Shown here: positions 24,284 through 62,089 of the stretch, piece after piece
Layout: each line of letters begins with the position of its first letter
Numbering within the stretch: position 1 is the stretch's first letter
IMG/VR virus record: IMGVR_UViG_3300025150_000002
Span: 139,522-203,521 of that record
Reading direction: 5' to 3' (one strand)
DNA length: 64,000 nucleotides
Source: a virus
Lineage: Duplodnaviria; Caudoviricetes
Program-made: the position numbers and the translations under genes
The notes under the pieces: model-generated
Told to the model about the DNA's origin: nothing
Databases searched by the model: none
The model's input: the letters and a program-made list of their open reading frames with translations, nothing else

Positions 24284-25135
24284 ATGCTGCGCTTCTTCGA
24301 CAAGCAGGGCCGACCTATCTCCTCCGAGCAATGGAGCGACTATCTCTGCGATCCTGATTACCAGATCATCAATCAGACCTGTGGTTGCGGGAAAATGGTC
24401 TCCACCGTCTGGCTCGGGCTGGATCACAGCCACGGCACTGGTAAGCCGGTAATCTTCGAGACGATGGTGTTTGGCTCCAACGGCCCTGGAGACGAGCTCG
24501 ACTGCGTGCGGTACTCATCCTTGGAGGAGGCGGTGGCCGGCCACGAGCGTCTAGCTAAGGAGCACGCGCTCGTTCTCGATCAGATCGTGTCAGCCATCGA
24601 GCGGGTCGACAACACCATCACCGTCTGGTCGATCCAGAGACTGTCCGCCTTCGAGAGGCTTCAGGAGTCCGGCGCGATCCATGGTGACTGGCGTCGCGTC
24701 GATAAATACTTCAAGAACCCCTATCGGTGGCTCTGTGATCAGATGGAGTCAAACGGAATTAGACTCCACGGTCGATGTCCTATGTGGGCCTGGGCTCACA
24801 AGCCGGATTTGAGGTCCGTTGGGCACGCTGCCCGAGGCGAGGCTGCCGTACGGCTTGAGTTGGAGGTCCCGGTTGTGGACTGCCTGGTCTCGAACTTCTC
24901 TGCCTGGCATTGCGTGTTGAACGACCATTTCATGGTGATCAACGATGCCGAGATGGCGAAGGAGTTTGACGGGAAGGTCAGCGGCTACACCCGCGCCGAA
25001 ATCAGCCAAAGCTGGCTGCGGATCTTCGATCTAGCGCTCTGCGCAGACAGCGGCTACGGCGACTTGTGCCAGGTCACCTTTCCGGGCATCGAGCTTAGCC
25101 AGGTTCGCAAGGTCACGAGGTTCAAGGGAAGGTAG
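24284..25135 (+). CDS. Fusion: small phage domain + LDxL tag + DUF3841-like domain
   Basis: VSTVWLGLDH...IFETMVFG; VLDQIVSAI; VWSIQ...PMWAW...PDLR...FSAWHCVLN. Confidence 0.7.
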   Translation: MLRFFDKQGRPISSEQWSDYLCDPDYQIINQTCGCGKMVSTVWLGLDHSHGTGKPVIFETMVFGSNGPGDELDCVRYSSLEEAVAGHERLAKEHALVLDQIVSAIERVDNTITVWSIQRLSAFERLQESGAIHGDWRRVDKYFKNPYRWLCDQMESNGIRLHGRCPMWAWAHKPDLRSVGHAARGEAAVRLELEVPVVDCLVSNFSAWHCVLNDHFMVINDAEMAKEFDGKVSGYTRAEISQSWLRIFDLALCADSGYGDLCQVTFPGIELSQVRKVTRFKGR

Positions 25136-25144
25136 AACGGAGAT

Positions 25145-25411
25145 ATGACCGATAAGCCCAACCCGTTCGTAATCAAGGTTCAACCGGGCACGACCGAGGT
25201 TGACCTTGGTCCCATTCTGCGGCCCATTATTTTCTGGGTGCAGAGGAAATCCGGTAACCAAGCAGATCCTGACAGGGTCGACAACCTTATGGCCGATCTG
25301 GTAGATGAGCTTGATTACCAGCGACGGCTCCAAATGACGAGCACGACGCTCCTGTTGTCGCCGCCGCTCGATTGTCCAGGCGTTGAGGAGCTCTGGTCCA
25401 TAAACAACTGA
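25145..25411 (+). CDS. Hypothetical protein
   Basis: GGTAGAAC 7 nt upstream; overlaps an antisense ORF. Confidence 0.5.
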   Translation: MTDKPNPFVIKVQPGTTEVDLGPILRPIIFWVQRKSGNQADPDRVDNLMADLVDELDYQRRLQMTSTTLLLSPPLDCPGVEELWSINN

Positions 25412-25476
25412 GACGAGTAGGAGAAAGACCCCCATCGTCCACAGTAGGAGGTCACCTACATCAATAAGTGCCAGGG

Positions 25477-26163
25477 TCACTCGTTGGCCTCTACTCGAAG
25501 CGGTGCGATTGTTCGCACCTCGCCAAACCCGGTGAGGTTGACATCCACACGATCACCGGGGTTCCAGGCGGCCCACTCGTTGAAGTCGAGTGTTGTCCAA
25601 GTGCGGCCCTTGCCGTCCTGACACTCGACGAGCACGGTATAAGGCCTTCTGATTTCACCTACTTGGCACTGATGCTGAGTTCGCGCGTCCGTGGTTGGGC
25701 GCTCCAGGACGAAGTCGGTTGGTGGGTGTGGCGAGCGGTCAGTGCCGGTGACCGAGAACGTGCGGTGAGGAACCCACTCGTCGTGATCGTATGCGTGGTA
25801 GGTATCTACGTGTACATGGATAGAGGTATTACCCTTGCTATCGGTTGAGGTTGTAGTGCGGGCCTCCGTCCATGACCGAAAGTTGTAGACGCCACCGCAG
25901 AATGACTCGTCAGGGCATGATGATGGGTGGCGGTAACTGACACGCTCGTAGTGTCGCTTGTCCCATTTCTGCACGTCGATGTGCCATGCCCATCGACATA
26001 CCACCACCTTACCCGTCTGGTGCTCGACGCCGAAGAGCCCCCACCCCAACCAGGCGAACAACGACACGGCGAACGCCATCACGGCGAGCGCAACAATTCG
26101 CTGTGGGTGCGACAACTCACTCCACCTGGGCACTGACCGTCTGCGGTATCCATAGCTGCCCAT
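25477..26163 (-). CDS. Membrane-anchored hypothetical protein
   Basis: N-terminal TM segment IVALAVMAFAVSLFAWLGWGLF. Confidence 0.65.
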   Translation of the reverse strand: MGSYGYRRRSVPRWSELSHPQRIVALAVMAFAVSLFAWLGWGLFGVEHQTGKVVVCRWAWHIDVQKWDKRHYERVSYRHPSSCPDESFCGGVYNFRSWTEARTTTSTDSKGNTSIHVHVDTYHAYDHDEWVPHRTFSVTGTDRSPHPPTDFVLERPTTDARTQHQCQVGEIRRPYTVLVECQDGKGRTWTTLDFNEWAAWNPGDRVDVNLTGFGEVRTIAPLRVEANE

Positions 26164-26279
26164 CTATACCTCCTCTCGCTCCTTGACTGCCTACGTCATA
26201 CCGGACCCGACGTCCTGCTCTCCATTCAAATCGATAAAAGAAAGTGGAATCGGACCTATTCCAAGCATTGGAGGTGAAC

Positions 26280-26636
26280 ATGGCGGTTCCGAACCTGAGT
26301 AAAATCCAGCGTCTAGAGGCCGAGCTCGCGGCGGAGCGTAAGAAGCTCGACGAGTGGGATAAGAGGCCCGACGATGCGCAGAAGCTCGCAGAGCTACTCC
26401 ACGAGCGATTCTGTAGATACAACCACACCGACGGGTGCAGCTGGGGCTACGAGTGCGGATCCAGCCATCCGGCACGTCACGATCCGTGGGAGTTCGGATT
26501 TGCGCACAAGGAGTGGCTCGGCAAGGCTCGCCTTTTTTTGGACACGGCTGGCAAGATCCAGAAGACAGTTAAGGGAAAGAGTGGTTATCAGCTCGCTGAG
26601 GCGCTGCTGATGGAGTGGCCGTCGTTCCTTCGCTAG
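26280..26636 (+). CDS. Hypothetical phage protein
   Basis: SD GGAGG; LHERFCRYNHTDGCSWGYE. Confidence 0.65.
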   Translation: MAVPNLSKIQRLEAELAAERKKLDEWDKRPDDAQKLAELLHERFCRYNHTDGCSWGYECGSSHPARHDPWEFGFAHKEWLGKARLFLDTAGKIQKTVKGKSGYQLAEALLMEWPSFLR

Positions 26637-26971
26637 ATGTCAGCGAGGTCATCGAGGATCATCGCCTCTCGTAGACGAGGCAAGACAACGGTTGTGACAA
26701 GTTGCCTGTCGATGAAGCCGTCACTCAGCTCGTAGGCCTGCGTGTAGGCTCTGAGACGTCCATACCCATGGGGGCCGGTAAGGACGTCTATGATGATGCC
26801 CGGCCGCCACATTATCTTGAGTCCAGCTACACGAAGGCCTGTCGAGTTAACACGGGGCAGGGCGGTCAGGATAGGGCCGAGCAGGCGCATTGCACGGGCG
26901 TCGAGCTCCTCGACGAGCTGCCTCTGAAGCTCGTAGTCCTCTGGGGTTCCATCCTGATCGTCATCCCACAT
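26633..26971 (-). CDS. Hypothetical protein with LDxL tag
   Basis: Ends REAMILDDLADI; GGTAGAAC 7 nt upstream. Confidence 0.7.
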   Translation of the reverse strand: MWDDDQDGTPEDYELQRQLVEELDARAMRLLGPILTALPRVNSTGLRVAGLKIMWRPGIIIDVLTGPHGYGRLRAYTQAYELSDGFIDRQLVTTVVLPRLREAMILDDLADI

Positions 26972-27005
26972 GACAGCGTTCTACCTGGATCGGGTAGAAC
27001 GCTGT

Positions 27006-27557
27006 ATGCCTACGATGACGATCATGCGCGGTGGACCGGGTTCCGGAAAGAGCTACTACGTGGCCCAGCGGTGCTTCACGACCGGTGTCATCCCGACCGT
27101 CTGTTCGGCCGATGAGTTCTTCATCAACGATAACGGCGTCTACGACTTCGACCCGAAGTGGTTGGGCCGCGCCCACGGCGCTTGTTTGAAGAAGTGCGTC
27201 GAGTCGATGATGGCTCGACTCGATGTGATCGTCGACAACACCAACTCCAAGGCGGAGGAGTTGATCCCTTACCTCGCGCTCTGCCAGGCCTTCAGCTACA
27301 GCTGCGTCGTGGTTCGGGTGCTCTGCAACCCTGAGCTCGCGTGGCAGCGTCAAACGCACGCGGTTCCCCGAGACAAGTTCGACGACATCCACACGACCGT
27401 CCGTCAGCAGCAGGTACCCAAGATGTATCGCGGCGCTCATTGGTTGATGATCAGGGACGTTGGTGAGGTTGAGCTTCCTTGCAACTGTGGGGTCTCGATG
27501 GGACTGCGGTCCGACCACGAGGGTGAGTGCCAGGCCGCCTACCGAAGGGACCGGTGA
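27006..27557 (+). CDS. AAA_33/polynucleotide-kinase-like P-loop protein
   Basis: MRGGPGSGKS, CSADEFF, AHGAC, IVDNTN. Confidence 0.8.
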   Translation: MPTMTIMRGGPGSGKSYYVAQRCFTTGVIPTVCSADEFFINDNGVYDFDPKWLGRAHGACLKKCVESMMARLDVIVDNTNSKAEELIPYLALCQAFSYSCVVVRVLCNPELAWQRQTHAVPRDKFDDIHTTVRQQQVPKMYRGAHWLMIRDVGEVELPCNCGVSMGLRSDHEGECQAAYRRDR

Positions 27558-28018
27558 ACAGCCGTAAGGAGAGCACGAATCGGGTGCGGATCGACGACTG
27601 CATCGCCCGTCGGCTCTACAGGATCCGATCGCGCAGCCTCGGCCCCCTCGCCGTCTACAACGGCAATGAGGGTTTTATTGGGCTGAGGTGCAAGTTTACG
27701 AGCGTTTTCCTGTCTACCGAGTTTCACTGGGACCAGGGACCCCCGTTCGGTACGGTGTTTGGAGTCGAGGATACCGGCATTGATCTGCCGGAAAACATCG
27801 GGCTGTGCGAGTCGCCTGGTGACATCGATGAGGCCACCGGACGGTGGGTCGAATTCGACCCACCATCGATGGATGGTGGCCGTGGTTGGTATTTCACGGA
27901 TACCGGTGAGGCGTCAGCAGATATCCGACCCGTCGTCAAGCACAACGACGCCCTGTTCGGCTGGCTCTGGGATCATGGCGCTAACGAGAAGCACTGGAAC
28001 AGGCCAGAGAGAGTCTGA
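27527..28018 (+). CDS. Hypothetical protein
   Basis: In + strand run. Confidence 0.55.
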   Translation: MPGRLPKGPVNSRKESTNRVRIDDCIARRLYRIRSRSLGPLAVYNGNEGFIGLRCKFTSVFLSTEFHWDQGPPFGTVFGVEDTGIDLPENIGLCESPGDIDEATGRWVEFDPPSMDGGRGWYFTDTGEASADIRPVVKHNDALFGWLWDHGANEKHWNRPERV

Positions 28019-28031
28019 TAGACTCTCTCTG

Positions 28032-28496: not shown

Positions 28497-28505
28497 GAGA
28501 GATGT

Positions 28506-30680: not shown

Positions 30681-30989
30681 ATGACGACCGAGACGATTAC
30701 CGAGATCGAGACTAACACCCGTCTCATTCCACCTTGGAATGTGGTTCTACTCAACGACGACGACCATTCCTACGACTATGTCATCGTCATGCTTTACGCC
30801 GTATTCGGCTTTCAGCCGGAGAAGGGTGTGATGCACGCTAAGGAGGTGGACTCGGTCGGTAGAACCATCCTGATCACCACCAGTCGAGAGCATGCTGAGC
30901 TCAAACAGGAACAATGCCATAATTTCGGACCAGACCCCCTTGTTCCACGCTGCAAGGGTCCGATGACTGTGATCATTGAGCCGGCGTGA
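30681..30989 (+). CDS. clpS: ClpS N-end-rule adaptor
   Basis: PPWNVVLLNDDDHSYDYV, EVDSVGR, EHAELK, IIEPA. Confidence 0.9.
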   Translation: MTTETITEIETNTRLIPPWNVVLLNDDDHSYDYVIVMLYAVFGFQPEKGVMHAKEVDSVGRTILITTSREHAELKQEQCHNFGPDPLVPRCKGPMTVIIEPA

Positions 30990-33236: not shown

Positions 33237-33575
33237 ATGCGAGACATCCCCTACGACAAGATCGCGCTGATCGAGCTCAAGCCCTGCCCGTTCTGCGGCC
33301 ACACACAACGAGGCGTAGAGCCGGATACTCAGGTCCGGCTTGTGTTTTCCGTCATGGCCGCCTACGTTCAATGCGGGTGTTGCAGGGCTACAGGATTTCA
33401 CGTGGGCGTGCCAGGCCACATCGACGAGCTCAACGAGTTCATGGATATGGTCTCTGAGGTAGACGTCTTCGGCCTTCCGCCGAACCCTCGAAATTTCAAG
33501 GACGGTGATCTCGATCTCTGGATGGCACAACTCGCCGCCAAGTTCTGGAACAACCGGAAGCCTCCTCGTGCTTGA
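33237..33575 (+). CDS. Lar-like (restriction alleviation) zinc-finger protein
   Basis: ELKPCPFCG...VQCGCC...WNNR. Confidence 0.65.
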   Translation: MRDIPYDKIALIELKPCPFCGHTQRGVEPDTQVRLVFSVMAAYVQCGCCRATGFHVGVPGHIDELNEFMDMVSEVDVFGLPPNPRNFKDGDLDLWMAQLAAKFWNNRKPPRA

Positions 33576-34101
33576 GACCCTTAAGCGGTCCTGGACCTGG
33601 TTGGTCAGGCTGTTCCGGCCACGACAGCTGACGGAGTCAGAGGTCGTTACGGCCTACATCGCTGCTGGCGCCTGTTACGGTGATGCCTGCACCTATCCCG
33701 GCGGTATGGCCCCTTCTATTGGCAAGTTTTCTGCCAGGGAGGCATGGGGGGTGATGGAGAAGGAGTATGCTGCACTCGGCTACCGAACCATCCCCATCAA
33801 GGATCTGATTGACCTAGGAGGCTACGGTCAGCCGGTGACCAAGCTGGTCCGGATCAGTCGAGACATAGGCGAAGAGGCTTTGCTCTGGGAGCCGAGCATC
33901 GAAGGGCCGGTCCCGATGGGGCCCGACGTCCTCGACCAACTCGCGAGCATCGGCGACCCAAGGACGTGCCCGGAGTGCCGAACCGAACTCTTGGAGGCCG
34001 ATCGAGTCCACTGCACGTGGTGCCTGAGCTCTATCCTCAGAGGATCTTTCGATAACCACTTGGCCGCCAACATTGCTGAGACCTACCTACAGACCGAATG
34101 A
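33505..34101 (+). CDS. Hypothetical protein, internal LDxL tag followed by Zn ribbon (start uncertain)
   Basis: PDVLDQLASIG then CPEC...CTWC. Confidence 0.55.
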   Translation: MISISGWHNSPPSSGTTGSLLVLETLKRSWTWLVRLFRPRQLTESEVVTAYIAAGACYGDACTYPGGMAPSIGKFSAREAWGVMEKEYAALGYRTIPIKDLIDLGGYGQPVTKLVRISRDIGEEALLWEPSIEGPVPMGPDVLDQLASIGDPRTCPECRTELLEADRVHCTWCLSSILRGSFDNHLAANIAETYLQTE

Positions 34102-34628
34102 CAAGGGAAAGCGACGGACGAGAAAGGTACTGGCGGCAGGTCAGACAAATCGCCGATGAGCACGATGTCTCCATTCCGGAGGCGCGGGCCATGTGGTCTC
34201 GCCTCTTCAAGCCAGGTGGGATCAAGAAGATGGTGCTGGCCCTCTCAGTTAGCTCATCACCAGCGATGTCGACAGTCTGCCCGTTCTGCCGAACTGAGCT
34301 ACCAGTCTTACATCAACACGAGGGTGCGTGTGGCCGCTGTGGATCGAGTGACCACCCCGAGCCGGGCGATGTTGACTGTTCACCCGAGCCGGTGTGGAGC
34401 TGCTCGAACTGTAGGACCACCATGCACCAGGAGTGCTACGACGAGCTCGGTCGCTGCTCAACACTAGGATGTCGATCGTCTAGGATTGTGGCCCGTCTGC
34501 GGCCCGCGCCTGGTTATGAGCGAGACTACGCGGGCCTGCCCAGCCGTGGTGTCCTACTGTCCTTGGCGATGGTTGGTGTCGCGGGGCTTCTTCTCATCGT
34601 CCTCGCTGTTATTAGGCTGTTCTGGTAG
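34098..34628 (+). CDS. Prokaryotic RING-like protein with C-terminal TM helix
   Basis: CPFC...CSNCRTTMHQECYDELGRCSTLGC. Confidence 0.65.
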   Translation: MTRESDGRERYWRQVRQIADEHDVSIPEARAMWSRLFKPGGIKKMVLALSVSSSPAMSTVCPFCRTELPVLHQHEGACGRCGSSDHPEPGDVDCSPEPVWSCSNCRTTMHQECYDELGRCSTLGCRSSRIVARLRPAPGYERDYAGLPSRGVLLSLAMVGVAGLLLIVLAVIRLFW

Positions 34629-35622
34629 TTGCCAGGTCGACCGCTTCGGGCGTCTTGATGACCCGGAAGAACTCAGGTCGCACGACCGTGATCTTGTGAC
34701 GCGTTCGGATCGCGCGCCGCAGCGACATGCCGTTGGGGTCAACGAAGTTCGGCGTCACAGTCACCATCGTATAGGGGCTGTAGACGATGCCTGTATCAAG
34801 CATGCCGCCCTGGTACCAGGTCATCAGGTGGCTCTTCGGAAAGAGCGGGTCCAGGTAGACGGTCTTACTTGTAGGCCCCTCGCCTAGAGTCCCCACCTTC
34901 TGGACTTGACCGTTGCTGATCGGAACGCTGATGCCAAGTTTGACCAGCGTTTCCTCATTTCCGATGACCCTGTTGGCAGGCATTCGCTGGGTACGCTGGT
35001 GGACACGGTTCGACGTACGAGATAGCTCTTCTAGCAGATCACAGTCTTCTGATACCAGATCTGTGTTGCTCGGGAGCAGGGCTATGTTGAGCATCGTGCC
35101 CAGGATTTCGCGCGTGATCTCAGTCAGGAACTCCTCGACCGCTAGGTCGAGCACACTGATGTCGCCTATGAGAGATTTGACTCTTCTGGTTTCGGCACAG
35201 ATGTCCTGGTCGGCGATTTTCAACCTGATCTCAGGAACCGTGACCTGGGTCGGCTTACCGGTCGTCTGGTTGGTGACGGTTATCTCAACCGTCCCACCAG
35301 TCTTCGGCTGATACCACAAAATGATACCGATCGGCCCGAGCATTGGCTGCGTGCTGCAGAGGTCAGGCAGGGGGTGCGCCTGCAGCTGAGCTTTGAGGGC
35401 GTCCCCGATTTTCTCGTGCCAGGTGTCGGGAAAGACTAGACCTCTCGTCTCCTCAGCCAACTGCTTGAAGTGCTTGTCCTGGTTCTCCAGGACGGCGGCG
35501 ATGAGATTCGAGCGATCGTTGTCGTTTTCAAGACCCCACTTTGCGCGCAAGCGCTCCAGGGTCGCTAGAGTTGCGGTGGGCGGGTTGGTTGCCATGTTAC
35601 CTCCAGTGATGGATGGTACCAC
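34612..35622 (-). CDS. Divergent T4 gp23-like major capsid paralogue (start probably 35595)
   Basis: AAVLENQ, STQPMLGPIG, AETRRVK, EITREIL, VYLDP, DTGIVYSPY, RTRH. Confidence 0.75.
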   Translation of the reverse strand: MVPSITGGNMATNPPTATLATLERLRAKWGLENDNDRSNLIAAVLENQDKHFKQLAEETRGLVFPDTWHEKIGDALKAQLQAHPLPDLCSTQPMLGPIGIILWYQPKTGGTVEITVTNQTTGKPTQVTVPEIRLKIADQDICAETRRVKSLIGDISVLDLAVEEFLTEITREILGTMLNIALLPSNTDLVSEDCDLLEELSRTSNRVHQRTQRMPANRVIGNEETLVKLGISVPISNGQVQKVGTLGEGPTSKTVYLDPLFPKSHLMTWYQGGMLDTGIVYSPYTMVTVTPNFVDPNGMSLRRAIRTRHKITVVRPEFFRVIKTPEAVDLATTRTA

Positions 35623-37340: not shown

Positions 37341-37810
37341 TGCGCGGACTCCTGTGCTGGTGTGTCGTGCTCCAGTCGGATCAGAAACGGCGGACGGTAA
37401 TTCGGAAACACCGCGCGAACCCAGTGGTCCCAGTGCGTGTTTTTCCAGTCGATCGGATCGACTATCCACGGCTCGAACTGGTAGTTGATGACGCCAACTT
37501 GTAGACAGGACGGGTCGGATAGCTTCATCGTCATGCTCGTCGGACGGGTCCAGTAAGCGAACACCAGAGCGTCTGCGTAAAGGGTGCCCTGGTTCGGCCG
37601 CGTGGACATGTCGAGTCCGACGATGACCTCCTTCGCGTCGCTAAGCTTGTTCCAGTAGTGGTTGATCAGCTGAGGAACGTCGACGGCTAGAGCATGCATC
37701 TCCAGCGTATCGTCCTGCTTGAGGACCAACATCTGGTGAGGGTAAACCCCCTCCTCGTCGATCGATCGCTCGATTAGCTCGAAGAACATCTGCGGAAGCG
37801 TCTTAGTCAC
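37337..37810 (-). CDS. Hypothetical protein
   Basis: Coupled in minus run. Confidence 0.6.
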   Translation of the reverse strand: MTKTLPQMFFELIERSIDEEGVYPHQMLVLKQDDTLEMHALAVDVPQLINHYWNKLSDAKEVIVGLDMSTRPNQGTLYADALVFAYWTRPTSMTMKLSDPSCLQVGVINYQFEPWIVDPIDWKNTHWDHWVRAVFPNYRPPFLIRLEHDTPAQESAQ

Positions 37811-38055
37811 TTGCCCACCTGCTCAGCATCGTTGATCGCCTTCACGATCCGGTCCAAGACCGGCACGGTCTCGTCGACGAGCTCCCATCCGTGGATCGAG
37901 CACATCAACCGGCACACCTCGCGGTCCATGTCAAACGGTCCCTCGATCTCGTAGTCGATGCCGGGAAATCTCTTCTCCATGAAGGTCCGAAGGTGACCAT
38001 CGATCTGCTCGACCGTCATAAACCTCTTCGTTGTCATGTAACCGTGGTTGGCCAT
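37807..38055 (-). CDS. Hypothetical protein with LDxL tag
   Basis: Ends PVLDRIVKAINDAEQVGK. Confidence 0.65.
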   Translation of the reverse strand: MANHGYMTTKRFMTVEQIDGHLRTFMEKRFPGIDYEIEGPFDMDREVCRLMCSIHGWELVDETVPVLDRIVKAINDAEQVGK

Positions 38056-38753
38056 TACGGTAACTCTGATGCCGCCGCCTCGTCGGCGAGGCGCTCAGCC
38101 TCCTCGTCGGCGAGACGCTCAGCCTCTCGCTCGTCCAGCAGCTCCTGAAGCTCGGCGTACGACCAGCCACGCAGGTCCATCATCATCCGCCGCCACAGTG
38201 GGTTATCCGGGTCGTTGATCCCATCAACCACGGCCAGCTGGCCGTTTGTTGCCGAGCCGTGGCCGCCACCAGCTCCACGGCAGTCCTCGTTCATCCACTG
38301 GAACTCGAACTCGCAGTCCGAGAAAAGAGAGGCCATCTTCTCGAAGACCGGAAAGGGAGGCGACCACGCCGTCTGGAACGCCACCGACGCGACGGTGGAG
38401 TCCGTGCCTACGCGCGCCAGCTGGTCCAGGACCCCGAGGTCACTGTCGACCTCGACCTCATATGCGTCCCACTTGGTGCCCCAGTTGTCGGGGTTCCATG
38501 TGTTCCAGCAGAACGGGTTCGGATCGCCGCCCCCGAGTCGGTGGTTGTAGTGGCTGTGAGAGCAGGTGTCGTTGTTGTAGTCAGGGTGGTCGGGAGGAGG
38601 CACGAACCCTCGAAACGAGAAGGCTCGGCGCTGGTAATCCGACACCTTGCCCGTCGCCGGGTCTATCGGCTCGTAGACACCTAGTGCCAGAAACTCTGCC
38701 ACCCGTGTTCTCGGACCGCTGATCGTGATCTTGTTTGATACGTGGTTCGGCAT
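38055..38753 (-). CDS. DUF1281/YubB-like protein with internal LDxL tag
   Basis: MPNHVSN, NWGTKWDA, FQTAWSPP; GVLDQLARV between them. Confidence 0.75.
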   Translation of the reverse strand: MPNHVSNKITISGPRTRVAEFLALGVYEPIDPATGKVSDYQRRAFSFRGFVPPPDHPDYNNDTCSHSHYNHRLGGGDPNPFCWNTWNPDNWGTKWDAYEVEVDSDLGVLDQLARVGTDSTVASVAFQTAWSPPFPVFEKMASLFSDCEFEFQWMNEDCRGAGGGHGSATNGQLAVVDGINDPDNPLWRRMMMDLRGWSYAELQELLDEREAERLADEEAERLADEAAASELP

Positions 38754-39447: not shown

Positions 39448-39927
39448 CTACGGGCCCTCCGGAGTATCCGTCGCCTCCGCCGCCTTCGAGGCTGCCGCTC
39501 GTTCGTCCATCATGTTCACCAGACGGATGATCTTGGCAATTCGCTCATCGGTTGTGAACGAATCACAGATCTTGTCGAGGACCTTCGTCCCCGCGTGCTC
39601 GATGATGGCCCGGACTTTCGGCTGCAACTGACTGATGTAGAACTCAAGGTGCTCCGGGTGAACCCTGATGTCCACGCGCTGATTGTTCAGTTGGGCGTAT
39701 TCGGGGACCCGGGGGATCACCTCTTCGAGGAGCCTGACCCGGCGGCCCGCCTCCTTGTCGCCCCACTTCGCGGCGAATTGGGTGAGGATCCTGGCCTTGA
39801 TCTCAGCCTCCGTTACGTCGTCGTCCATGGTCTCCCTATCCTCGTGGTTCAAGACCAACCTCCTATAACGCTCTGAGATAGGGTTCGCGGACGCAGTACA
39901 CAAGATTTTTCTTGTGTACTGCGGCAA
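39448..39927 (-). CDS. Hypothetical protein (start uncertain)
   Basis: Contains KVLDKICDSF. Confidence 0.5.
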   Translation of the reverse strand: MPQYTRKILCTASANPISERYRRLVLNHEDRETMDDDVTEAEIKARILTQFAAKWGDKEAGRRVRLLEEVIPRVPEYAQLNNQRVDIRVHPEHLEFYISQLQPKVRAIIEHAGTKVLDKICDSFTTDERIAKIIRLVNMMDERAAASKAAEATDTPEGP

Positions 39928-42674: not shown

Positions 42675-42866
42675 ATGAGCACCAACACCCAGAGTTCCAA
42701 CGTCCCGTGCGACGGCCCCGAGTGCGTCCTTTGCCAGCTGACCGGGCCTCCCGATATGGTCCAGGTCTGGGTCAAGGACCTAGACGACGGCGAGTGGAAG
42801 TCGCTCACCATGAAGCGGGCGCGGGCGCTAGAGCTCGGCCTTATCAAGGATGCCACTGATGCTTGA
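42675..42866 (+). CDS. Hypothetical protein
   Basis: GGTAGAAC 7 nt upstream. Confidence 0.6.
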   Translation: MSTNTQSSNVPCDGPECVLCQLTGPPDMVQVWVKDLDDGEWKSLTMKRARALELGLIKDATDA

Positions 42867-43107
42867 GCCGAGAATCAGGGTGTTCTGGAGCGCAAAGGAT
42901 TACGACCTGAAGGCTGCATGGGACGCTGGGTGCGCTTCTCAAGACGGCGGCTACCTACTGTTCTTGCTTTTCAACAAGACGTTCCTGGAGGCGCTGGACG
43001 AGCGTGGCTACGACATCAAGACGCTCAGGTTCCAGATCAGAAAGAAGCCACCAAACGCGCTCGACCGAATCGTCAACGCAATCAACGAGGCAGAGGAGAA
43101 GGTGTAA
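42850..43107 (+). CDS. Hypothetical protein with LDxL tag
   Basis: Ends PNALDRIVNAINEAEEKV. Confidence 0.65.
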   Translation: MPLMLEPRIRVFWSAKDYDLKAAWDAGCASQDGGYLLFLLFNKTFLEALDERGYDIKTLRFQIRKKPPNALDRIVNAINEAEEKV

Positions 43108-43670
43108 TGGGCTACGAGACTGAGATTTACCTGGTAGACAAGGGCCATGACGACTGCCTCGTCCAGTGGCAGCCTGCCTCAGAGCACTGGTACACCGCGA
43201 CCAGGAACCCGCTCGACCGGTTGGTCGAGGCCACCGGCGAGGTCAATAAGGACCCGCTTCAAGGGGTTCCGGCCGACGCCCTGTTCTCGGATGGCGGAGT
43301 GATCATCGCTTCGCTGAGGATGGGTACGATCGGGAGTGGTGGCCACGACGATGGAGAGCTCGACGACTTCTTCGCCAAGAACCGCGAGAGGCAGAAGATG
43401 GAGAAGAAGTTCCTCCTCCTTAAGTGGATGCCGAGCGACTGCCTCAACACCAGCGAGTGGCCCGATGTCACCGACCCCTACGGCGACCCCTACGTCCTGC
43501 ACGACGCCCAAGGCACCCTGGATGCCCTCAATCGAACCATCGAGCGCAAGCTGAAGGAGAACGATGGAGTGCTGTATACGATCGATCGGCGCTATTCCAT
43601 GTTGAAGGCCATCCTCGTTCCTTTCATCGCTGGATGGCCGAACCCAGCGGTGGTGACACGTGGCTACTGA
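43107..43670 (+). CDS. Hypothetical protein with internal LDxL tag
   Basis: MGYETEIYLV; NPLDRLVEAT; TAATG coupling. Confidence 0.65.
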   Translation: MGYETEIYLVDKGHDDCLVQWQPASEHWYTATRNPLDRLVEATGEVNKDPLQGVPADALFSDGGVIIASLRMGTIGSGGHDDGELDDFFAKNRERQKMEKKFLLLKWMPSDCLNTSEWPDVTDPYGDPYVLHDAQGTLDALNRTIERKLKENDGVLYTIDRRYSMLKAILVPFIAGWPNPAVVTRGY

Positions 43671-53419: not shown

Positions 53420-53724
53420 GCGCTAACTCGAACCCTCTTCGGTGGAATCCACCGATTCACTATTTTAAGGGCGAGCGTGTTCAGTATCGGTCTGTCTACG
53501 CTAATTTCGACACCAACCGGCCGCATGAACAACGCGGGACCGTTGACGAGGACGCCCCCACCAGCACCTTGACAGGCGTCTTGGTGCGGTGGGATAACGG
53601 TGAGCTCCAGGCGGTCTATGGCCACAGCCTGATCAAGCTGAACGTGCTCGATTTGTTGGCCGAGATCAACGCCTCAACGACCCCAGAGCGTCCAGAGGAA
53701 AGGCCGTCATCAGAGCGCTCATGA
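53416..53724 (+). CDS. SH3/KOW-like protein with LDxL tag
   Basis: FKGERV...VRWDNG; LNVLDLLAEI. Confidence 0.6.
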   Translation: MSANSNPLRWNPPIHYFKGERVQYRSVYANFDTNRPHEQRGTVDEDAPTSTLTGVLVRWDNGELQAVYGHSLIKLNVLDLLAEINASTTPERPEERPSSERS

Positions 53725-53863
53725 CTTTTCTCGCGTCGTCCTCGTTGAAATTCAGGACGATCTGACCGTCGTTGCAGATGAACTGCACCGGATAGAAAGT
53801 CTGGGTTTTGGTGATGAGTAGGTAGATGTCCGTGGTCAGGTCTACGCGAACCGGCTCGCTCAT
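53666..53863 (-). CDS. Hypothetical protein with LDxL tag
   Basis: Ends AFPLDALGSLRR. Confidence 0.6.
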   Translation of the reverse strand: MSEPVRVDLTTDIYLLITKTQTFYPVQFICNDGQIVLNFNEDDARKVMSALMTAFPLDALGSLRR

Positions 53864-54042
53864 TGAGCGCCTAACCGCCCTGAGTTGTGACCATACCGCA
53901 TGGTGGAGCGGAGTTCGGCCTGTCCCCGTCTACGTTGGCACATGTAGACGACACGACTGTTCCGGCTGCACGGCTCGCCGGTCTTCGCACCACACCACTG
54001 ATTCGGACAATCGATGTCGATCGCCCTTAGCTTTTCTGACAT
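53860..54042 (-). CDS. Small zinc-finger protein
   Basis: CPNQWCGAKTGEPC; ATGA coupling. Confidence 0.5.
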   Translation of the reverse strand: MSEKLRAIDIDCPNQWCGAKTGEPCSRNSRVVYMCQRRRGQAELRSTMRYGHNSGRLGAQ

Positions 54043-54063
54043 GGTCCATCCTGTTGGGCCCTA

Positions 54064-54148
54064 CGGAAGCAGAGGGATTCGAACCCCCGGAGGTGTGACC
54101 CTCTCCTGATTTCAAATCAGGTGCATTAGACCGCTCTGCCATGCTTCC
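54064..54148 (-). tRNA. tRNA-Ser(TGA), CCA not encoded
   Basis: GGAAGCA/TGCTTCC acceptor, anticodon arm CCTGA-TTTGAAA-TCAGG, long variable arm, GGTTCGAATCC T-loop. Confidence 0.93.
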
Positions 54149-54166
54149 TTCGTTAGTCCTGTTGTC

Positions 54167-54391
54167 TCAGATCCCGCTCAGAGCATCAAGCGGGTAGAGG
54201 TTGATGAGCGCGCGCAGGAGCGCCCGAGCCTCGTCCGATGAGAGCGGAACGGCGACTATCTTGCCGTCCACCATTGCGACATCGGTAGTGGTCACAGGCG
54301 TGACAGGAGCTCCGTGAGGGGGCTCGTTGAGAGGGTCGATGACCAGGCTGATCTCGTCGTCTCCAAGGTCTACCCAATGCTTATCGATCAT
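54167..54391 (-). CDS. Hypothetical protein with LDxL tag
   Basis: Ends NLYPLDALSGI; GGTAGAAC 7 nt upstream. Confidence 0.65.
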   Translation of the reverse strand: MIDKHWVDLGDDEISLVIDPLNEPPHGAPVTPVTTTDVAMVDGKIVAVPLSSDEARALLRALINLYPLDALSGI

Positions 54392-57523: not shown

Positions 57524-57526
57524 GGT

Positions 57527-57829: not shown

Positions 57830-57915
57830 GCCTCAGGCTCGGACCGGGTCCGGAGGACGTCTAGTTGCAGTGTCATCTCAACGGCATCGTAGTTGAGACA
57901 GACTGAGAGACGTTA

Positions 57916-58305: not shown

Positions 58306-58318
58306 AGGTAGGAATCTG

Positions 58319-58546
58319 GTGTCTGAGGTTGGAAGGCGCTACAAGATCGTTCAACAAGTGTCCGTCGCGTACCTCAACGAGGGCGACCAGTGCGAGGTTA
58401 TCGTCTCTCCGGGAGCTGGAGAGTTCTGGTTCGATGGCTCGAACATCCTCTACGAGGACGCGAAGTCAGGACGGGTCGTCACCACCACCTGGACCAATAA
58501 CTTCATCGACTCCATGGTCGAGGCGGGCAGACTGGCTTCGGTATAA
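58319..58546 (+). CDS. Hypothetical protein
   Basis: In + strand run. Confidence 0.5.
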   Translation: MSEVGRRYKIVQQVSVAYLNEGDQCEVIVSPGAGEFWFDGSNILYEDAKSGRVVTTTWTNNFIDSMVEAGRLASV

Positions 58547-58583
58547 GGTGAGAGTGCCTGAGAGCTGTCCTGACGGAGACGAG

Positions 58584-59018
58584 ATGACCCAACGCCCGCC
58601 ACAAGGACCGACCGACTTCCGATTGTGCGAGCGGAGTGACATCAACGCTCTCATCTATCGATGCATAGACTACGTCGCCACGGCGTTAAACCCGTGGCCC
58701 GTATACGGTCACCCGGAGGAGGAGGACTGCTACACCAATTCCACAACCCTCTTCGGTGTCTGGCGTGTGGTGGCCGTCTGGACCGCCTCAGGTTGCCTGT
58801 TCGCGCTGACCGTAAACCAAGTGTCATCTCATGAGGTCGTCCTCAGCTACTACAACGCCGAGTTCGATGAGCCGGACGACTACATCGATGCACCTGATGA
58901 TCTACTCCCAGTAAACGTAGATCATATCGAGGTGTCCTCTGGATCAGAGGAGCTGATCGCATTGTTCTCGGCCGACCTGGGTACAGCGTTCGTGCTAGAC
59001 GCGCTGGCGGATATCTAG
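58584..59018 (+). CDS. Hypothetical protein with LDxL tag
   Basis: Ends AFVLDALADI. Confidence 0.65.
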   Translation: MTQRPPQGPTDFRLCERSDINALIYRCIDYVATALNPWPVYGHPEEEDCYTNSTTLFGVWRVVAVWTASGCLFALTVNQVSSHEVVLSYYNAEFDEPDDYIDAPDDLLPVNVDHIEVSSGSEELIALFSADLGTAFVLDALADI

Positions 59019-59287
59019 TGGACATCACCCTTCAACCTGGGGACCGAGTCGAGTGCTGGGTCTCTGGTCCAAGCTCATGCGGGCGCTACCTCATTAGCAA
59101 CGTGAAGCTCGCCAAGGGCACTTTTCATGGCTGGGAGGCTCAGGGTGTTGATCGTGGTCCGCACATCTACTACCCGAACGGAGCGTCATGGGCGAGGGTT
59201 CAGGTTGATGGCTCCAGCGATGTATACCGTGTTCGCCCTGAGAAGGTCTTCCGTCTGGGCGTCCTGGACCGACTGGCGGAGATCTAA
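59018..59287 (+). CDS. SH3/KOW-like protein with LDxL tag
   Basis: LQPGDRVE; ends LGVLDRLAEI. Confidence 0.65.
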   Translation: MDITLQPGDRVECWVSGPSSCGRYLISNVKLAKGTFHGWEAQGVDRGPHIYYPNGASWARVQVDGSSDVYRVRPEKVFRLGVLDRLAEI

Positions 59288-59658
59288 TGCACCCATCTGA
59301 CGACCCCAACAACGAGGACCTGGTCATTGAGATCCAAATGGTTGCGACCAGGATCCTTGCCGCGCTCAAGTTGCTCAACCCGAAGGACTACAAGGTCGTC
59401 TGGGAGAATCGGGAAACTCTCAGAACCCCGGTAGTCGGTTACACGGAGTGTTACGCCGAGACCGGCCGGTTAGGGCTTCGATGCTCAGATACCGGCTGGG
59501 TCACTGCGGTAGACCTTCTCCTACCGAGCCGCACTCTTTTTCATGCGTGGATCGGTAACGGTCCGCTGGAGTACGATTGGGATACTGACGTGGCCCGCAA
59601 ACTAATCATGCCAGAGTTGCGGCGTGTTCTGATCCTTGAGGACATGGCGAGGATCTGA
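59287..59658 (+). CDS. Hypothetical protein with LDxL tag
   Basis: Ends RRVLILEDMARI. Confidence 0.65.
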   Translation: MHPSDDPNNEDLVIEIQMVATRILAALKLLNPKDYKVVWENRETLRTPVVGYTECYAETGRLGLRCSDTGWVTAVDLLLPSRTLFHAWIGNGPLEYDWDTDVARKLIMPELRRVLILEDMARI

Positions 59659-59915
59659 TGCCCGACAAGTCATGGTGGACGGAGGGTGGAAATATCCTCT
59701 CGCTTTGCGAGCGGAGCGCCATCAACTTGACCTTCGATTCCGACGGTCGCGTGGCTGTCTGGACCAGCGGTGGAGACAGAGTCATCCTCGATCAGACCAG
59801 GATCGAGCAACTCACGAGGGTCATGCTCGATCGGCTTGGCCAGCCGGGCCGGGCCGCAATCATGAACGAGCTCATCAGCGAGATGCTGTTGGACGCATCG
59901 AGCCGCAAATTTTGA
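59658..59915 (+). CDS. Hypothetical protein
   Basis: TGATG coupling; contains VMLDRLGQ. Confidence 0.55.
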   Translation: MPDKSWWTEGGNILSLCERSAINLTFDSDGRVAVWTSGGDRVILDQTRIEQLTRVMLDRLGQPGRAAIMNELISEMLLDASSRKF

Positions 59916-59972
59916 AAACGAAGTGCGAGATTAGGCTGGATTCAACCTTCTAGATCATAAAGGAGGAGAACG

Positions 59973-60482
59973 ATGCCGAACGCACCTGTAGTGACCTGTC
60001 CGCACTGTCCGCACTGTCGAGCCATGGTGGCCGCCCACCCTACGCCTGTCTCTGAGAAGGCTCGTAAAACCCCCAAGATAGGTGAGTGCTCCTTCTGTAA
60101 CGTAGCCGCGACTTGCTCCGCTTGGGGCGTCGCGTCCTACGGACCTGGGGGAGGACTTGACGCCCACTGGGCGATCTTCCCGGCATGCGACCGATGCGCC
60201 GACTCTGATTGGGGCGCCCGGCCGGCCCACACCAGACCATCAACCTCGGCAACACGTCGGGTCGTAGGCGCACCGGCTCTACCCGAGCTTATCGAGTGCT
60301 CCTTCGTGATGTCTTGGGCTGGAATGTGCCACGTCAAGCACCCCAAGTCCGAGGGCAAGTTCTGCGCTCGCCACCGTGGACTGAAGTGTCGGTGTGGAAG
60401 AGCGGCTTCCACGGACTGCGACTCAGTAATCGGACCGATGGTCTGCGGGATGCCGCTCTGCGGCAGGTGCCGCTGTCACTAG
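59973..60482 (+). CDS. Cys-rich multi-zinc-finger protein
   Basis: About 18 Cys in CxxC pairs; SD AAGGAGGAG. Confidence 0.65.
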   Translation: MPNAPVVTCPHCPHCRAMVAAHPTPVSEKARKTPKIGECSFCNVAATCSAWGVASYGPGGGLDAHWAIFPACDRCADSDWGARPAHTRPSTSATRRVVGAPALPELIECSFVMSWAGMCHVKHPKSEGKFCARHRGLKCRCGRAASTDCDSVIGPMVCGMPLCGRCRCH

Positions 60483-60709
60483 ATTCGGGCCAGGTCGTCT
60501 AGCACGAACTCGCGGCCCAACAGCCTCATCAACTCCAATACCTCGTCCTTCATCATCCCAACCTGGCCAGCGAGCCTTCCTTCGCTGAAGCGACGCTCGC
60601 TTAGGACCACACGCTGCTTGTCGTCGCTGATGGCGAGCTCCAGCCGTATGAACTCGTCACCGCCATCTCTGGACAGAGACCGTCCGAATCGGGTCACTAC
60701 GTATTTCAT
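60479..60709 (-). CDS. Hypothetical protein with LDxL tag
   Basis: Ends REFVLDDLARI. Confidence 0.65.
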   Translation of the reverse strand: MKYVVTRFGRSLSRDGGDEFIRLELAISDDKQRVVLSERRFSEGRLAGQVGMMKDEVLELMRLLGREFVLDDLARI

Positions 60710-61299
60710 TGGACTCTCAGGAGGTGGGAGTGGTGGTCGCGGTGGGTCCTGATCTTGACCTGTGGAACGCCGGCCACCAGGATCCCGTGCTTGGTCAGCC
60801 AGGCGATTGTCTCGTCGAATGTCTCATCACGGCCCATCCTGGTTAACGCGACCTCGTCCCACTCGTGGTCATCCATGTTCTTGCGCCACTCTCCGCCGAT
60901 GTGGTGGACCCAGAGAATTCCCATGAGCGATGCGCGCGACTCCTCTCGGAAATCGTAGTCACCGGCCATGATCGAATCGCAGTTTCCGCCGTCAGGCTCC
61001 GAGCCCAGGCCAAAGCCCTTCAGAAGCCGACGCTTAGGGGAAGCGACCTGATAGTGGCCGAGCTCGTGGAGGATGTTCTGGACTGAGTCACCTCGAAGCG
61101 TCTGACTCTTGCCGTCCCATTGGTATTTCTGATTATCGAACGACCACTTGAACCCCTCCCACTTCAGTCCGAACGACTTCACGAGCTGGTCCATTTTGCG
61201 GACCAGGTCGCAGTTAGGGTCGGCCTTCAACACGTTTTCCCGAAGGCTACTGACGTGGTTCGAAAAAAGTGCGGCCCGAATCTCCTCCGCAGGTGTCAT
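60706..61299 (-). CDS. HExxH-motif protein (putative metalloenzyme)
   Basis: ILHELGHYQVA..KRR..KGFGLG.EPDGG. Confidence 0.6.
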   Translation of the reverse strand: MTPAEEIRAALFSNHVSSLRENVLKADPNCDLVRKMDQLVKSFGLKWEGFKWSFDNQKYQWDGKSQTLRGDSVQNILHELGHYQVASPKRRLLKGFGLGSEPDGGNCDSIMAGDYDFREESRASLMGILWVHHIGGEWRKNMDDHEWDEVALTRMGRDETFDETIAWLTKHGILVAGVPQVKIRTHRDHHSHLLRVQ

Positions 61300-61514
61300 G
61301 TAATGCGCCCCAGCATGTCCAAGGGGAACCGCTCATTGATCAGCTTTGCCAGATCCATCAGCGCCTCGTTCGCCACGACGATACGGAGGTCTCCCTCCCT
61401 CCCATCTCGGATTCTGATGATCGAGGAATACACGGGGCCGAACTGGATGGCTAGCTCCGCCCGGTAGTTCTTGTCGGTGTCTGATTTCTGGAAGACGATC
61501 AGCTCGTGACTCAT
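61296..61514 (-). CDS. Hypothetical protein with LDxL tag
   Basis: Ends RFPLDMLGRIT. Confidence 0.65.
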   Translation of the reverse strand: MSHELIVFQKSDTDKNYRAELAIQFGPVYSSIIRIRDGREGDLRIVVANEALMDLAKLINERFPLDMLGRIT

Positions 61515-61621
61515 ACCATTCTCTTACCCGGAGATCGCTCGAAAATGTTGCGGCCAACCACTCGATGCATTAGGACGGCCTGCACCTATCGGGTCAAACG
61601 CCGGTAGAACAGGAAGAGGAC

Positions 61622-62089
61622 ATGACACCTCAGATGAATTTGAAGCAACGCGTGTGGGGGCCGAGCGTTGACCACGATCCTCGCTGTGACCAGCGCATCT
61701 CCGGAGGCCATCTAAGCGTACGTTACACCTGCCTCAAGCGTTTCTACTGCGAGGGATGCGACGCCATGCACATGGACCGCAAGTGCCCTCGGACCGTGCT
61801 GGACCAGATCGTGGAGGCGGTCGAGTTCGAGAGGAAGACCCCCAAGCAGCTGATCGGCGAGATCCTCGACGCGGCTGAGGCTCGGGGAGGTTATCTCTCC
61901 GGACGTCCGATCGAGTTCCACATCAAGAGCCGGATCGAGGAGTTGGTGGCCCGGCACGGTAACCTCGGCATGACCCGAGTGAGGCTCTTCAACATGATTC
62001 GTAAGGAGATGCACCGCCGGTGGAATCGGGAGTACCGGCGGCTGTGGGAGGAGCGCCGTAAGGAGCGCGAGCAGGAGCGCGAGGAGTAG
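61622..62089 (+). CDS. Hypothetical protein with internal LDxL tag
   Basis: Cys/His N-terminal part, RTVLDQIVEAV, basic helical tail. Confidence 0.6.
   Translation: MTPQMNLKQRVWGPSVDHDPRCDQRISGGHLSVRYTCLKRFYCEGCDAMHMDRKCPRTVLDQIVEAVEFERKTPKQLIGEILDAAEARGGYLSGRPIEFHIKSRIEELVARHGNLGMTRVRLFNMIRKEMHRRWNREYRRLWEERRKEREQEREE

What the first reader, a model, noticed from the sequence alone, without database searches (positions are those of the whole stretch)
24284..62089. The same tag sits internally at domain junctions and inside a loop of a conserved fold
Seen: in 24284-25135, VLDQIVSAI lies between a small phage domain and a DUF3841-like domain. In 38055-38753, GVLDQLARV sits between the conserved NWGTKWDA and FQTAWSPP blocks of a DUF1281-like protein. 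Further internal copies: 33505 (VLDQLASI, before a Zn ribbon), 43107 (PLDRLVEA), 61622 (VLDQIVEA), 39448 (VLDKICDS), 59658 (MLDRLGQ). Inference: the tag does not need a free C-terminal carboxylate, which argues against a classical C-degron and for a docking helix. Some genes look like fusions of a tagged ORF with its neighbour.
Basis: partly seen in the sequence, partly recalled or inferred. Interest (0 to 1): 0.72.

Follow-up and report, generated by a model that had tools for sequence, protein, structure and literature searches.

The report
Portable address helix also works internally
In this uncultured 203-kb groundwater phage, a short peptide that ends about 27 small proteins also sits, under selection, inside five larger proteins, so it is probably read as a helix and not by its free end.

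Summary
All seven strings are at the stated places. Five exceed chance (16-20 bits on a profile of terminal copies; 6 internal hits of 14 bits or more in window genes against 0.09 in shuffles). VLDKICDS (39448) and MLDRLGQ (59658) do not.

- **DUF1281_C protein (38055-38753):** the tag is a 10-17-residue insertion in a beta-hairpin. 19 of 20 close homologues keep it; distant ones lack it.
- **43107-43670:** the same holds. The insertion is in 3 homologues and is a gap in 6.
- **24284-25135:** a true fusion. Three related contigs carry the N-domain as a separate gene ending in tag plus acidic tail, overlapping a stand-alone DUF3841 gene.
- **33505 and 61622:** the tag lies between a body and a zinc module. 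Fusion is not shown for these.

The [VIP]LD core is kept better than its flanks. The tail after the tag runs from 0 to about 26 residues. Loci whose homologue lacks the insertion lack terminal tags.

Best reading: a portable docking helix that needs no free carboxylate. Its reader is unidentified, and cleavage after the tag is not excluded.

This scan has noted similar shared C-terminal tags in other huge phages. I found no paper describing this tag.

The parts
24284..25135 (+). Fusion gene (283 aa): small N-domain (1-96), tag VLDQIVSA (residues 97-104, nt 24572-24595), 8-residue linker, DUF3841 domain (113-249).
   Evidence: - Pfam PF12952, 58.4 bits.
- Four other fused homologues keep V-L-D (A2).
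- Split loci L007, L169 and L170.
- Fused forms cluster on the tree.
- AlphaFold model pLDDT 91.7; the tag is in the C-terminal half of helix 80-109, where pLDDT dips to 68-75.
38055..38753 (-). DUF1281_C (Api92-like) protein, 232 aa. Tag VLDQLARV (residues 108-115, nt 38409-38432) is inserted in the first beta-hairpin of the PF18406 domain.
   Evidence: - Pfam PF18406, 38.8 bits; the match restarts at profile position 14 after the insert.
- 19 of 20 close homologues keep the insert at 7.8-19.4 bits.
- Distant homologues have a gap there. Spacing from WGTKW to FxTAW is 18-25 residues in them, against 35 here.
- AlphaFold model pLDDT 88.8, helix 108-113 between strands 98-103 and 119-129.
- Best PDB match is 2ijr, Api92.
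43107..43670 (+). 187-aa protein of unknown family. Tag PLDRLVEA (residues 35-42, nt 43209-43232) is an insertion after a conserved N-terminal block.
   Evidence: - The true start is the ATG overlapping the stop of 42850-43107. The first 63 codons of ORF 42918 are an Arg-rich alternative frame.
- The insert is present in the window, P0151 and P0152, and is a gap in P0153-P0158 (A5).
- The L001 orthologue keeps PLDEIVRA.
33505..34101 (+). 198-aa protein: body of about 140 aa, tag VLDQLASI (nt 33928-33951), then GDPR and a C-terminal zinc ribbon (CPEC...CTWC).
   Evidence: - 20.2 bits.
- The orthologue in L003 keeps VLDRLATI followed by GEPRTCPEC, at 63% identity overall. The upstream part of the ORF is conserved, so it is coding.
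- No split form was found.
61622..62089 (+). 155-aa protein: Cys/His-rich N-module, tag VLDQIVEA (residues 59-66, nt 61796-61819), helical basic C-module.
   Evidence: - C-P-R and V-L-D (C-P-R-x-V-L-D) are invariant in 11 homologues of 43-57% identity.
- 7 of 11 score 12.8 bits or more. Four have drifted at positions 5-8, scoring 3.8-9.0 at the tag site (P0145 3.8, P0148 8.2, P0149 9.0; P0147's own best 8-mer, 10.5 bits, lies elsewhere) (A4).
39448..39927 (-). VLDKICDS (nt 39559-39582): rejected as a tag; an ordinary helix.
   Evidence: 4.6 bits. Orthologues read VIDKITDS, VIDKICDS and VMDKILDA, so the otherwise near-invariant Leu is not kept.
59658..59915 (+). MLDRLGQP (nt 59823-59846): unsupported, at chance level.
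   Evidence: 8.3 bits. At that threshold real and reversed sequences give equal counts. No orthologues were at hand.
42850..43107 (+). Example of an extended terminal tag: ends ALDRIVNA plus 8 more residues. Its L001 orthologue ends ILDQLADI-stop.
   Evidence: the same protein family has a tail of 8 residues in one phage and 0 in the other.
37807..38055 (-). Extended terminal tag: VLDRIVKA plus 9 residues. Orthologues have tails of 4-5 residues.
13005..13421 (-). Near-terminal copy VLDRMAAE, followed by an 18-residue Cys-containing tail.
   Evidence: 15.8 bits. L005 has a similar copy with a 23-residue tail.

Best explanation
The element [V/I/P]-L-D-x-[L/I/M]-[A/V/S]-x-[I/A/V/L] is a portable, lineage-specific, helix-forming short linear motif. 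It acts as an address or docking helix, read through one face of the helix (positions 1, 2, 5, 8 plus the conserved Asp) by a common partner that is still unidentified. It is not read through the free C-terminal carboxylate.

Most copies are at C-termini, probably because that is where a short helix can be added without disturbing a fold. The motif stays under selection in three other settings:
1. followed by acidic tails of up to about 26 residues;
2. trapped between two domains, when a tagged ORF fuses with the gene that overlaps its stop;
3. inserted into surface hairpins or variable segments of conserved folds.

Shown here: the sequence facts, the insertions, one fusion, the conservation pattern and the predicted helicity.

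Inferred: that the internal copies bind the same reader, and that binding is independent of the carboxylate.
For: - **Excess over chance.** Internal copies far exceed composition-matched expectation and exceed unrelated phage loci.
- **Two independent loop insertions limited to this phage clade.** One is in DUF1281_C. The other is in the 43107 family.
- **One documented fusion.** Three split loci carry the tag near the end of the upstream gene.
- **Selection on the motif itself.**
  - The first three tag columns have pairwise identity 0.68-1.0.
  - In the three larger alignments all eight tag columns average 0.58-0.68, against 0.37-0.47 for the ±10-residue flanks. In the 3-row A5 the flanks are higher (0.54 against 0.63).
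  - The conserved and variable positions match those of terminal tags.
- **Tail length is a continuum.** Of 92 copies, the tail is 0 residues in 26, 1-2 in 17, 3-10 in 19, 11-30 in 8 and over 30 in 22. Orthologues differ in tail length.
- **Co-occurrence.** Loci whose homologue bears the insertion (window, L001, L003, L173, L187) all have terminal tags nearby. Loci whose homologue lacks it (L172, L186, and about 1.8 Mb of distant DUF1281 loci) have almost none.
- **Protein-level conservation.** Codons of the tag vary synonymously.
- **Predicted helix.** Both AlphaFold models make the tag a helix with locally lower confidence.
Against: - No reader is known and no binding has been measured.
- Copies are strongly biased to the extreme end (43 of 92 within 2 residues). 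Truly terminal copies prefer Ile at position 8, while extended and internal ones prefer Ala with Ile-Val at positions 5-6. The terminus may therefore matter for some copies.
- In the 61622 family four of eleven homologues have lost positions 5-8 of the motif.
- A GC-matched six-frame control leaves only about a 3.4-fold excess.
Confidence: 0.6

Rival explanations
1. The tag is a processing mark. A protease cuts after the tag, trimming the acidic tails and splitting fused proteins. The working form is then always C-terminal and may still be read through its carboxylate, as a degron or an end-recognition signal.
For: - Tail lengths peak sharply at 0-2 residues. The tails are short, variable and rich in Asp and Glu (33%).
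- The fused 24284 protein would yield the same two products as the split loci.
- Position 8 differs between terminal and extended copies.
- The phage carries a ClpS homologue, so it does engage host proteolysis.
Against: - No PDZ or S41 C-terminal processing peptidase was found in the genome.
- Cutting inside the DUF1281_C hairpin would nick a folded domain, yet the insert is kept in 19 of 20 homologues.
- There is no conserved residue after position 8 that could define a cleavage site.
Confidence: 0.13
2. Internal copies are inert relics. Only terminal copies work. Internal ones are left over from fusions, or are kept because they became structural parts of their new proteins.
For: - One clear fusion.
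- Drift of positions 5-8 in four of eleven 61622 homologues.
- In 24284 the tag continues the last helix of the N-domain.
Against: - The two loop insertions are not fusion products and are confined to tag-using phages.
- The conservation pattern within internal copies matches that of the tag and exceeds that of the flanks.
- Fused forms keep V-L-D at only about 50-57% identity to the window protein (alignment mean 58%).
Confidence: 0.15
3. Chance resemblance of ordinary amphipathic helices in a high-GC proteome rich in Leu, Asp, Arg and Ala.
For: - True for 39448 and probably for 59658.
- High-GC control loci give 4.2 internal hits per 100 kb in six frames.
- DHH proteins of relatives carry a VLDAM helix that may be ordinary.
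Against: - 6 observed against 0.09 expected in called genes.
- Reversed sequences give 0 at 14 bits.
- The insertions are absent from distant homologues.
Confidence: 0.05

Closest known systems
Clamp-binding peptides: bacterial beta-clamp motif QL[SD]LF, the PIP box, and the hydrophobic-acidic C-terminal epitopes of T4 gp43, gp33 and gp55 that bind gp45 (PMC2988020)
   Same: - A short peptide shared by many otherwise unrelated clients of one hub.
- Joined to the body by variable linkers and interchangeable between proteins.
- In cellular clamps the motif is found at N-termini, internally and at C-termini (my own knowledge).
- The T4 epitopes are hydrophobic and acidic, like this tag and its tails.
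   Different: - The tag has no Gln or aromatic pair (logo).
- None of the large replication proteins of this phage ends in the tag.
- No gp45-type clamp domain was detected.
- The clients are about 27 small orphan proteins, not replication or transcription factors.
Encapsulation peptides of bacterial microcompartments (PMC4594438) and cargo-loading peptides of encapsulins
   Same: - A short amphipathic helix set off by a poorly conserved linker.
- It can sit at either end of the cargo. In CcmN it is usually followed by a hydrophilic tail of 5-15 residues.
- It is added to orthologues only in genomes that have the compartment, which parallels the lineage-specific insertions here.
   Different: - No BMC shell gene and no encapsulin gene in the phage.
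- The tag core is 8 residues, not 15-20.
- A second gp23-like capsid paralogue lies among the tagged genes, but nothing links it to the tag.
C-terminal degrons and adaptor tails of AAA+ proteases (ssrA tag, SspB XB tail)
   Same: A short C-terminal peptide that acts as a label read by one machine. The terminal tag copies end in a hydrophobic residue.
   Different: As I recall it, recognition of ssrA by ClpX depends on the terminal residues and their free carboxylate. Here more than half of the copies have residues after the motif, and five are deep inside proteins and conserved.
Shared C-terminal helix tags noted by this scan in other huge phages (e1-5408355, e1-5380303, e1-5411303, e1-5411482 and others)
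   Same: A fifth to a seventh of the small orphan proteins of a large phage end in one clade-specific short helix with an unknown reader.
   Different: The consensus sequence differs. Those notes describe end-anchored tags. Here the same motif is also documented in loops and at a fusion junction.

Membership tests
Carboxylate-dependent C-terminal degron (ssrA type) | The motif must be the last residues of the protein, with a free alpha-carboxylate. | tested here: not met
   Only 26 of 92 copies end exactly at the stop; 22 have more than 30 residues after them. The internal copies are conserved.
Carboxylate-dependent C-terminal degron (ssrA type) | Tagged proteins are degraded by a cognate AAA+ protease. 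| not testable with these tools
   This needs stability assays. Only a ClpS homologue, which reads N-termini, was found.
T4-type clamp-binding C-terminal epitope | Present on the DNA polymerase and late-transcription factors; a gp45-type clamp is encoded. | tested here: not met
   No large replication protein ends in the tag. There is no PF09116 match in the genome, but the record is 89% complete, so the clamp part is inconclusive.
Beta-clamp motif / PIP box | Consensus with a leading Gln and a terminal aromatic or Leu-Phe pair. | tested here: not met
   Position logos of 92 copies show no Gln or aromatic preference. The consensus is taken from my own knowledge.
BMC encapsulation peptide | Amphipathic helix of 15-20 residues set off by a linker. 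| tested here: inconclusive
   The tag is predicted helical and hydrophobic at positions 1, 2, 5 and 8. The conserved core is only 8 residues.
BMC encapsulation peptide | A BMC shell protein (PF00936) is encoded alongside. | tested here: not met
   No match in the genome.
Encapsulin cargo-loading peptide | An encapsulin shell gene (PF04454) is present and binds the peptide. | tested here: not met
   No PF04454 match. Only a gp23-like paralogue is present. Binding is untested.
PF18406 DUF1281_C (Api92-like), for the 38055 protein | Pfam score over the gathering cut-off, and the fold of Api92. | tested here: met
   38.8 bits against a cut-off of 22.8. Best PDB match is 2ijr with probability 0.99, but TM-score is only 0.43.
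PF12952 DUF3841, for the 24284 protein | Pfam score over the gathering cut-off. | tested here: met
   58.4 bits against a cut-off of 27, over residues 113-249.

The most novel reading that the evidence does not exclude
This clade of T4-like huge phages runs its own protein-sorting system. One position-independent address helix recruits some thirty accessory proteins, including enzymes that gained the helix by loop insertion or gene fusion. The destination is a single phage-built structure, such as the capsid interior or a shell made by the extra gp23-like paralogue that lies among the tagged genes. This would be a viral counterpart of encapsulin or microcompartment cargo loading.
Probability: 0.15. 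Interest if true: 0.85.

Novelty: new variant of a known kind. Interest (0 to 1): 0.62.

Why it matters
Shared end tags on orphan proteins keep turning up in huge phages, and their readers are unknown.

This case gives three mechanistic constraints:
- The label is read as a helix.
- It tolerates any position in the chain.
- Evolution moves it around by simple steps: a frameshift in an overlapping stop-start, or a hairpin insertion.

That narrows the kind of reader to look for. A groove that binds a helix fits. A carboxylate clamp or an end-threading protease does not.

It also supplies natural matched pairs for experiments: tag-bearing against tag-free homologues of DUF1281_C and of the 43107 family, and fused against split DUF3841. 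These make the function of a large block of phage dark matter directly testable.

Tried and rejected
- **DNA-level repeat or regulatory element.** Rejected: the codons of the tag vary synonymously.
- **Close relatives in public collections.** None found in the phage collection, IMG/VR or the metagenome scan. Those loci served only as controls. Relatives came from exact-protein look-ups.
- **The genome search on relatives' records.** Not possible.
- **Candidate readers in the phage genome.** All absent:
  - BRCT
  - gp45 clamp C-domain
  - PDZ
  - S41 peptidase
  - encapsulin
  - BMC shell
- **Co-fold.** The gp23-like paralogue with the 24284 N-domain plus tag gave no verdict (score 0.00). It is evidence neither way.
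- **Family searches on tagged proteins.** Pfam and PHROGs on about 35 tagged or neighbouring proteins gave almost no names.
- **T4 prohead-protease site (Leu/Ile-x-Glu).** Considered from memory and dropped, because most tags lack Glu at position 7.
- **Split forms of 33505 and 61622.** Not found in the loci at hand.


Full report
**Setting.** The window is the last 64 kb of a 203,521-bp uncultured phage record. GC is about 58%.
- The phage is T4-like. It has a true gp23 major capsid gene elsewhere and a second, shorter gp23-like paralogue inside the window.
- It also carries intein-bearing DnaB-like and RecQ-like helicases.
- The window is mostly small orphan genes. My own codon-bias gene calls give 95 genes in the window and 218 in the genome.

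**The tag.** Twenty-seven to twenty-nine called genes end in [V/I/P]-L-D-x-[L/I/M]-[A/V/S]-x-[I/A/V/L], mostly right at the stop.
- The codons vary synonymously: five Leu codons, both Asp codons and three Arg codons. The conservation is therefore in the peptide, not the DNA.
- I built an 8-column profile from 27 terminal or near-terminal copies. Leave-one-out scores are 9.3-21.5 bits.
- Terminal hits (13 bits or more, within 10 residues of a stop, six-frame ORFs of 50 aa or more), per 100 kb:

| Sequence set | Terminal hits per 100 kb |
|---|---|
| Window | 39 |
| Four related loci | 19 |
| 1.13 Mb of unrelated IMG/VR phage loci | 0.27 |
| 655 kb of metagenome loci | 0 |
| 215 kb of high-GC control loci | 0 |

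**The seven internal copies.**
- Five score 16.2-20.2 bits. VLDKICDS scores 4.6 and MLDRLGQP 8.3.
- In the 96 window proteins, internal hits of 14 bits or more number 6 against 0.09 in shuffles. In the whole genome the count is 8 against 0.4, and none in reversed sequences.
- At 8 bits, real and reversed sequences give the same count, so the two weak copies cannot be told from chance.
- The more conservative six-frame comparison with high-GC control loci leaves a 3.4-fold excess. The case for each copy therefore rests on its homologues.

**38055-38753, DUF1281_C.** A search of 5.8 billion proteins gave 602 relatives.
- Twenty close ones (40-54% identity) share an extra 10-17 residues between NWGTKWDAY and FQTAWSPP. 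These residues read T-[I/V]-L-[D/E]-[R/Q]-[L/M]-A-R and the like. Nineteen of the twenty score 7.8-19.4 bits on the tag profile.
- Distant relatives have a short turn there. The WGTKW to FxTAW spacing is 18-25 residues in them, against 35 here.
- In a tag-free relative the Pfam model PF18406 starts at the KW of WGTKW and runs through the turn. In the window protein the match restarts at profile position 14, after the insert. The insert therefore lies inside the domain, in its first beta-hairpin.
- The AlphaFold model (pLDDT 88.8) puts a short helix at 108-113 between strands 98-103 and 119-129, with locally lower confidence. The best PDB match is Api92, 2ijr.

**24284-25135, DUF3841.** Homologues come in two forms.
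- Five are fused (221-285 aa) and all have V-L-D at the junction. Eleven are stand-alone DUF3841 proteins (167-175 aa) that begin just after the linker.
- In three related contigs (L007, L169, L170) the gene upstream of the stand-alone DUF3841 is the N-domain homologue. It ends in the tag plus a 21-26-residue acidic Gly/Ser-rich tail and overlaps the DUF3841 start by about 50 nt in another frame.
- A one-base shift in that overlap would give the fused form. This step is inferred.
- On a tree of the DUF3841 part, four fused forms make one group (support 91/88) and the fifth is unresolved. The fused label needs 1-2 changes.
- The model (pLDDT 91.7, pTM 0.63) shows the tag as the far half of helix 80-109, leading straight into the first DUF3841 strand. 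pLDDT dips to 68-75 there.

**43107-43670.**
- The first 63 codons of ORF 42918 overlap the tagged gene 42850-43107 in another frame and look non-coding. The real start is the ATG that overlaps that gene's stop.
- An exhaustive HMMER search found eight homologues (a ninth, fragmentary hit was set aside).
- The tag segment is present in the window protein, P0151 and P0152, and is a gap in P0153-P0158, which are 37-47% identical otherwise.
- This is a second lineage-specific insertion.

**33505-34101 and 61622-62089.**
- In 33505 the tag is of the purely terminal type (VLDQLASI). It is followed by GDPR and a zinc ribbon, and the L003 orthologue keeps this arrangement.
- In 61622, C-P-R and V-L-D (C-P-R-x-V-L-D) are invariant in eleven homologues, just after the last Cys of a Cys/His module. 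Positions 5-8 have drifted in four of them.
- No split forms were found, so fusion is only a guess for these two.

**39448.** Orthologues read VID and VMD where true tags keep Leu. I count this as an ordinary helix.

**Selection and position.**
- In the three larger alignments the tag columns are better kept than the ten residues on either side. In the 3-row A5 the flanks are higher:

| Alignment | Tag columns (mean pairwise identity) | Flanks ±10 |
|---|---|---|
| A3 | 0.58 | 0.37 |
| A2 | 0.62 | 0.39 |
| A4 | 0.68 | 0.47 |
| A5 | 0.54 | 0.63 |

- The pattern of kept and free positions copies that of terminal tags.
- Across the genome and seven related loci, the tail after the motif is 0 residues in 26 copies, 1-2 in 17, 3-10 in 19, 11-30 in 8 and over 30 in 22. 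Tails are one third Asp or Glu.
- Orthologues differ in tail length. The 42850 protein has 8 residues after the tag and its L001 orthologue has none.
- Truly terminal copies favour Leu-Ala-x-Ile. Extended and internal ones favour Ile-Val-x-Ala.

**Co-occurrence.**
- Loci whose homologue carries an insertion (window, L001, L003, L173, L187) all hold terminal tags.
- Loci whose homologue lacks it (L172, L186) hold none, even though their GC is 57-67%.
- A 94-kb relative (L171) has 22 terminal tags in 20 kb.

**Mechanism.** The simplest reading is a docking helix read by its side chains, which works at the end, near the end, between domains or in a loop.
BRCT, gp45-type clamp, PDZ, S41 peptidase, encapsulin and BMC shell families are all absent from the record.
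- A ClpS homologue is present, but ClpS reads N-termini.
- Cleavage after the tag remains a live rival, because the end bias is strong.

**Comparison with what is known.** The nearest things in print are clamp-binding peptides and compartment-targeting peptides.
- The clamp-binding group includes the interchangeable hydrophobic-acidic C-termini of T4 gp43, gp33 and gp55 (PMC2988020).
- Microcompartment encapsulation peptides are helices on variable linkers, sometimes followed by a short hydrophilic tail. They are added only in genomes that have the compartment (PMC4594438).
- The tag fails the defining features of each family (see the membership table), so it works like them without being one of them.
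- One literature search for such a tag in jumbo phages found nothing.
- This scan has noted other clade-specific end tags in huge phages. The internal copies are what is new here.

Noticed in passing
window 2676-4262 (-), 13646-17914 (+), and the DnaB-like gene whose C-terminus lies just upstream of the window: Three replication proteins end in acidic tails with a DDDPF-type motif. This recalls the SSB C-terminal tail and would be a second shared tail motif in this phage.
   Followed up: no
window 7230-8903 (-): A HerA/FtsK-like ATPase ends in GFFSLFG-stop. This hydrophobic tail, from memory, resembles T4-type clamp-binding ends.
   Followed up: no
window 30681-30989 (+): Phage-encoded ClpS homologue (PF02617, 54 bits). 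A relative (L003 10039-10347) has one too.
   Followed up: partly
window 34612-35622 (-): A second, short gp23-like capsid paralogue lies among the tagged genes. The same arrangement is seen in L001 and L003, with a weaker (24% identical, Pfam 'weak') gp23-like gene in L171. The true major capsid gene is at genome 7431-8864.
   Followed up: partly
window 42918-43106 (+): The first 63 codons of the 250-aa ORF overlap gene 42850-43107 in another frame and look non-coding. The real start is the ATG at 43107, in a TGATG overlap.
   Followed up: yes
L171 (Logan SRR27751815_83656, 94 kb; NCBI copy labelled a Nitrospiraceae MAG): A phage-like contig with 22 terminal tags in 20 kb, many on proteins of about 105 aa that look like paralogues. 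It is probably a phage binned into a bacterial genome.
   Followed up: partly
L001 12307 and L187 4658: A further conserved internal copy (ILDRLVQA / ILDRLAVA) in proteins of 218-272 aa in relatives. No counterpart was examined in the window.
   Followed up: no
L001 6393 (-): A copy near the N-terminus (about residue 7 of a 104-aa protein), so the motif may occur at all three positions.
   Followed up: no
window 53666-54391, 60479-61514, 62703-63418 (-): Six small proteins, four ending in the PLDALG-type variant and two in a VLD-type variant (VLDDLARI, VLDMLAELGS), look like paralogues. Some of the tagged proteins are therefore related by descent, not independently tagged.
   Followed up: no
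window 13646-17914 (+) and 1-2011 (-): The RecQ-like helicase carries two inteins and the DnaB-like helicase one, with LAGLIDADG homing endonuclease domains.
   Followed up: no
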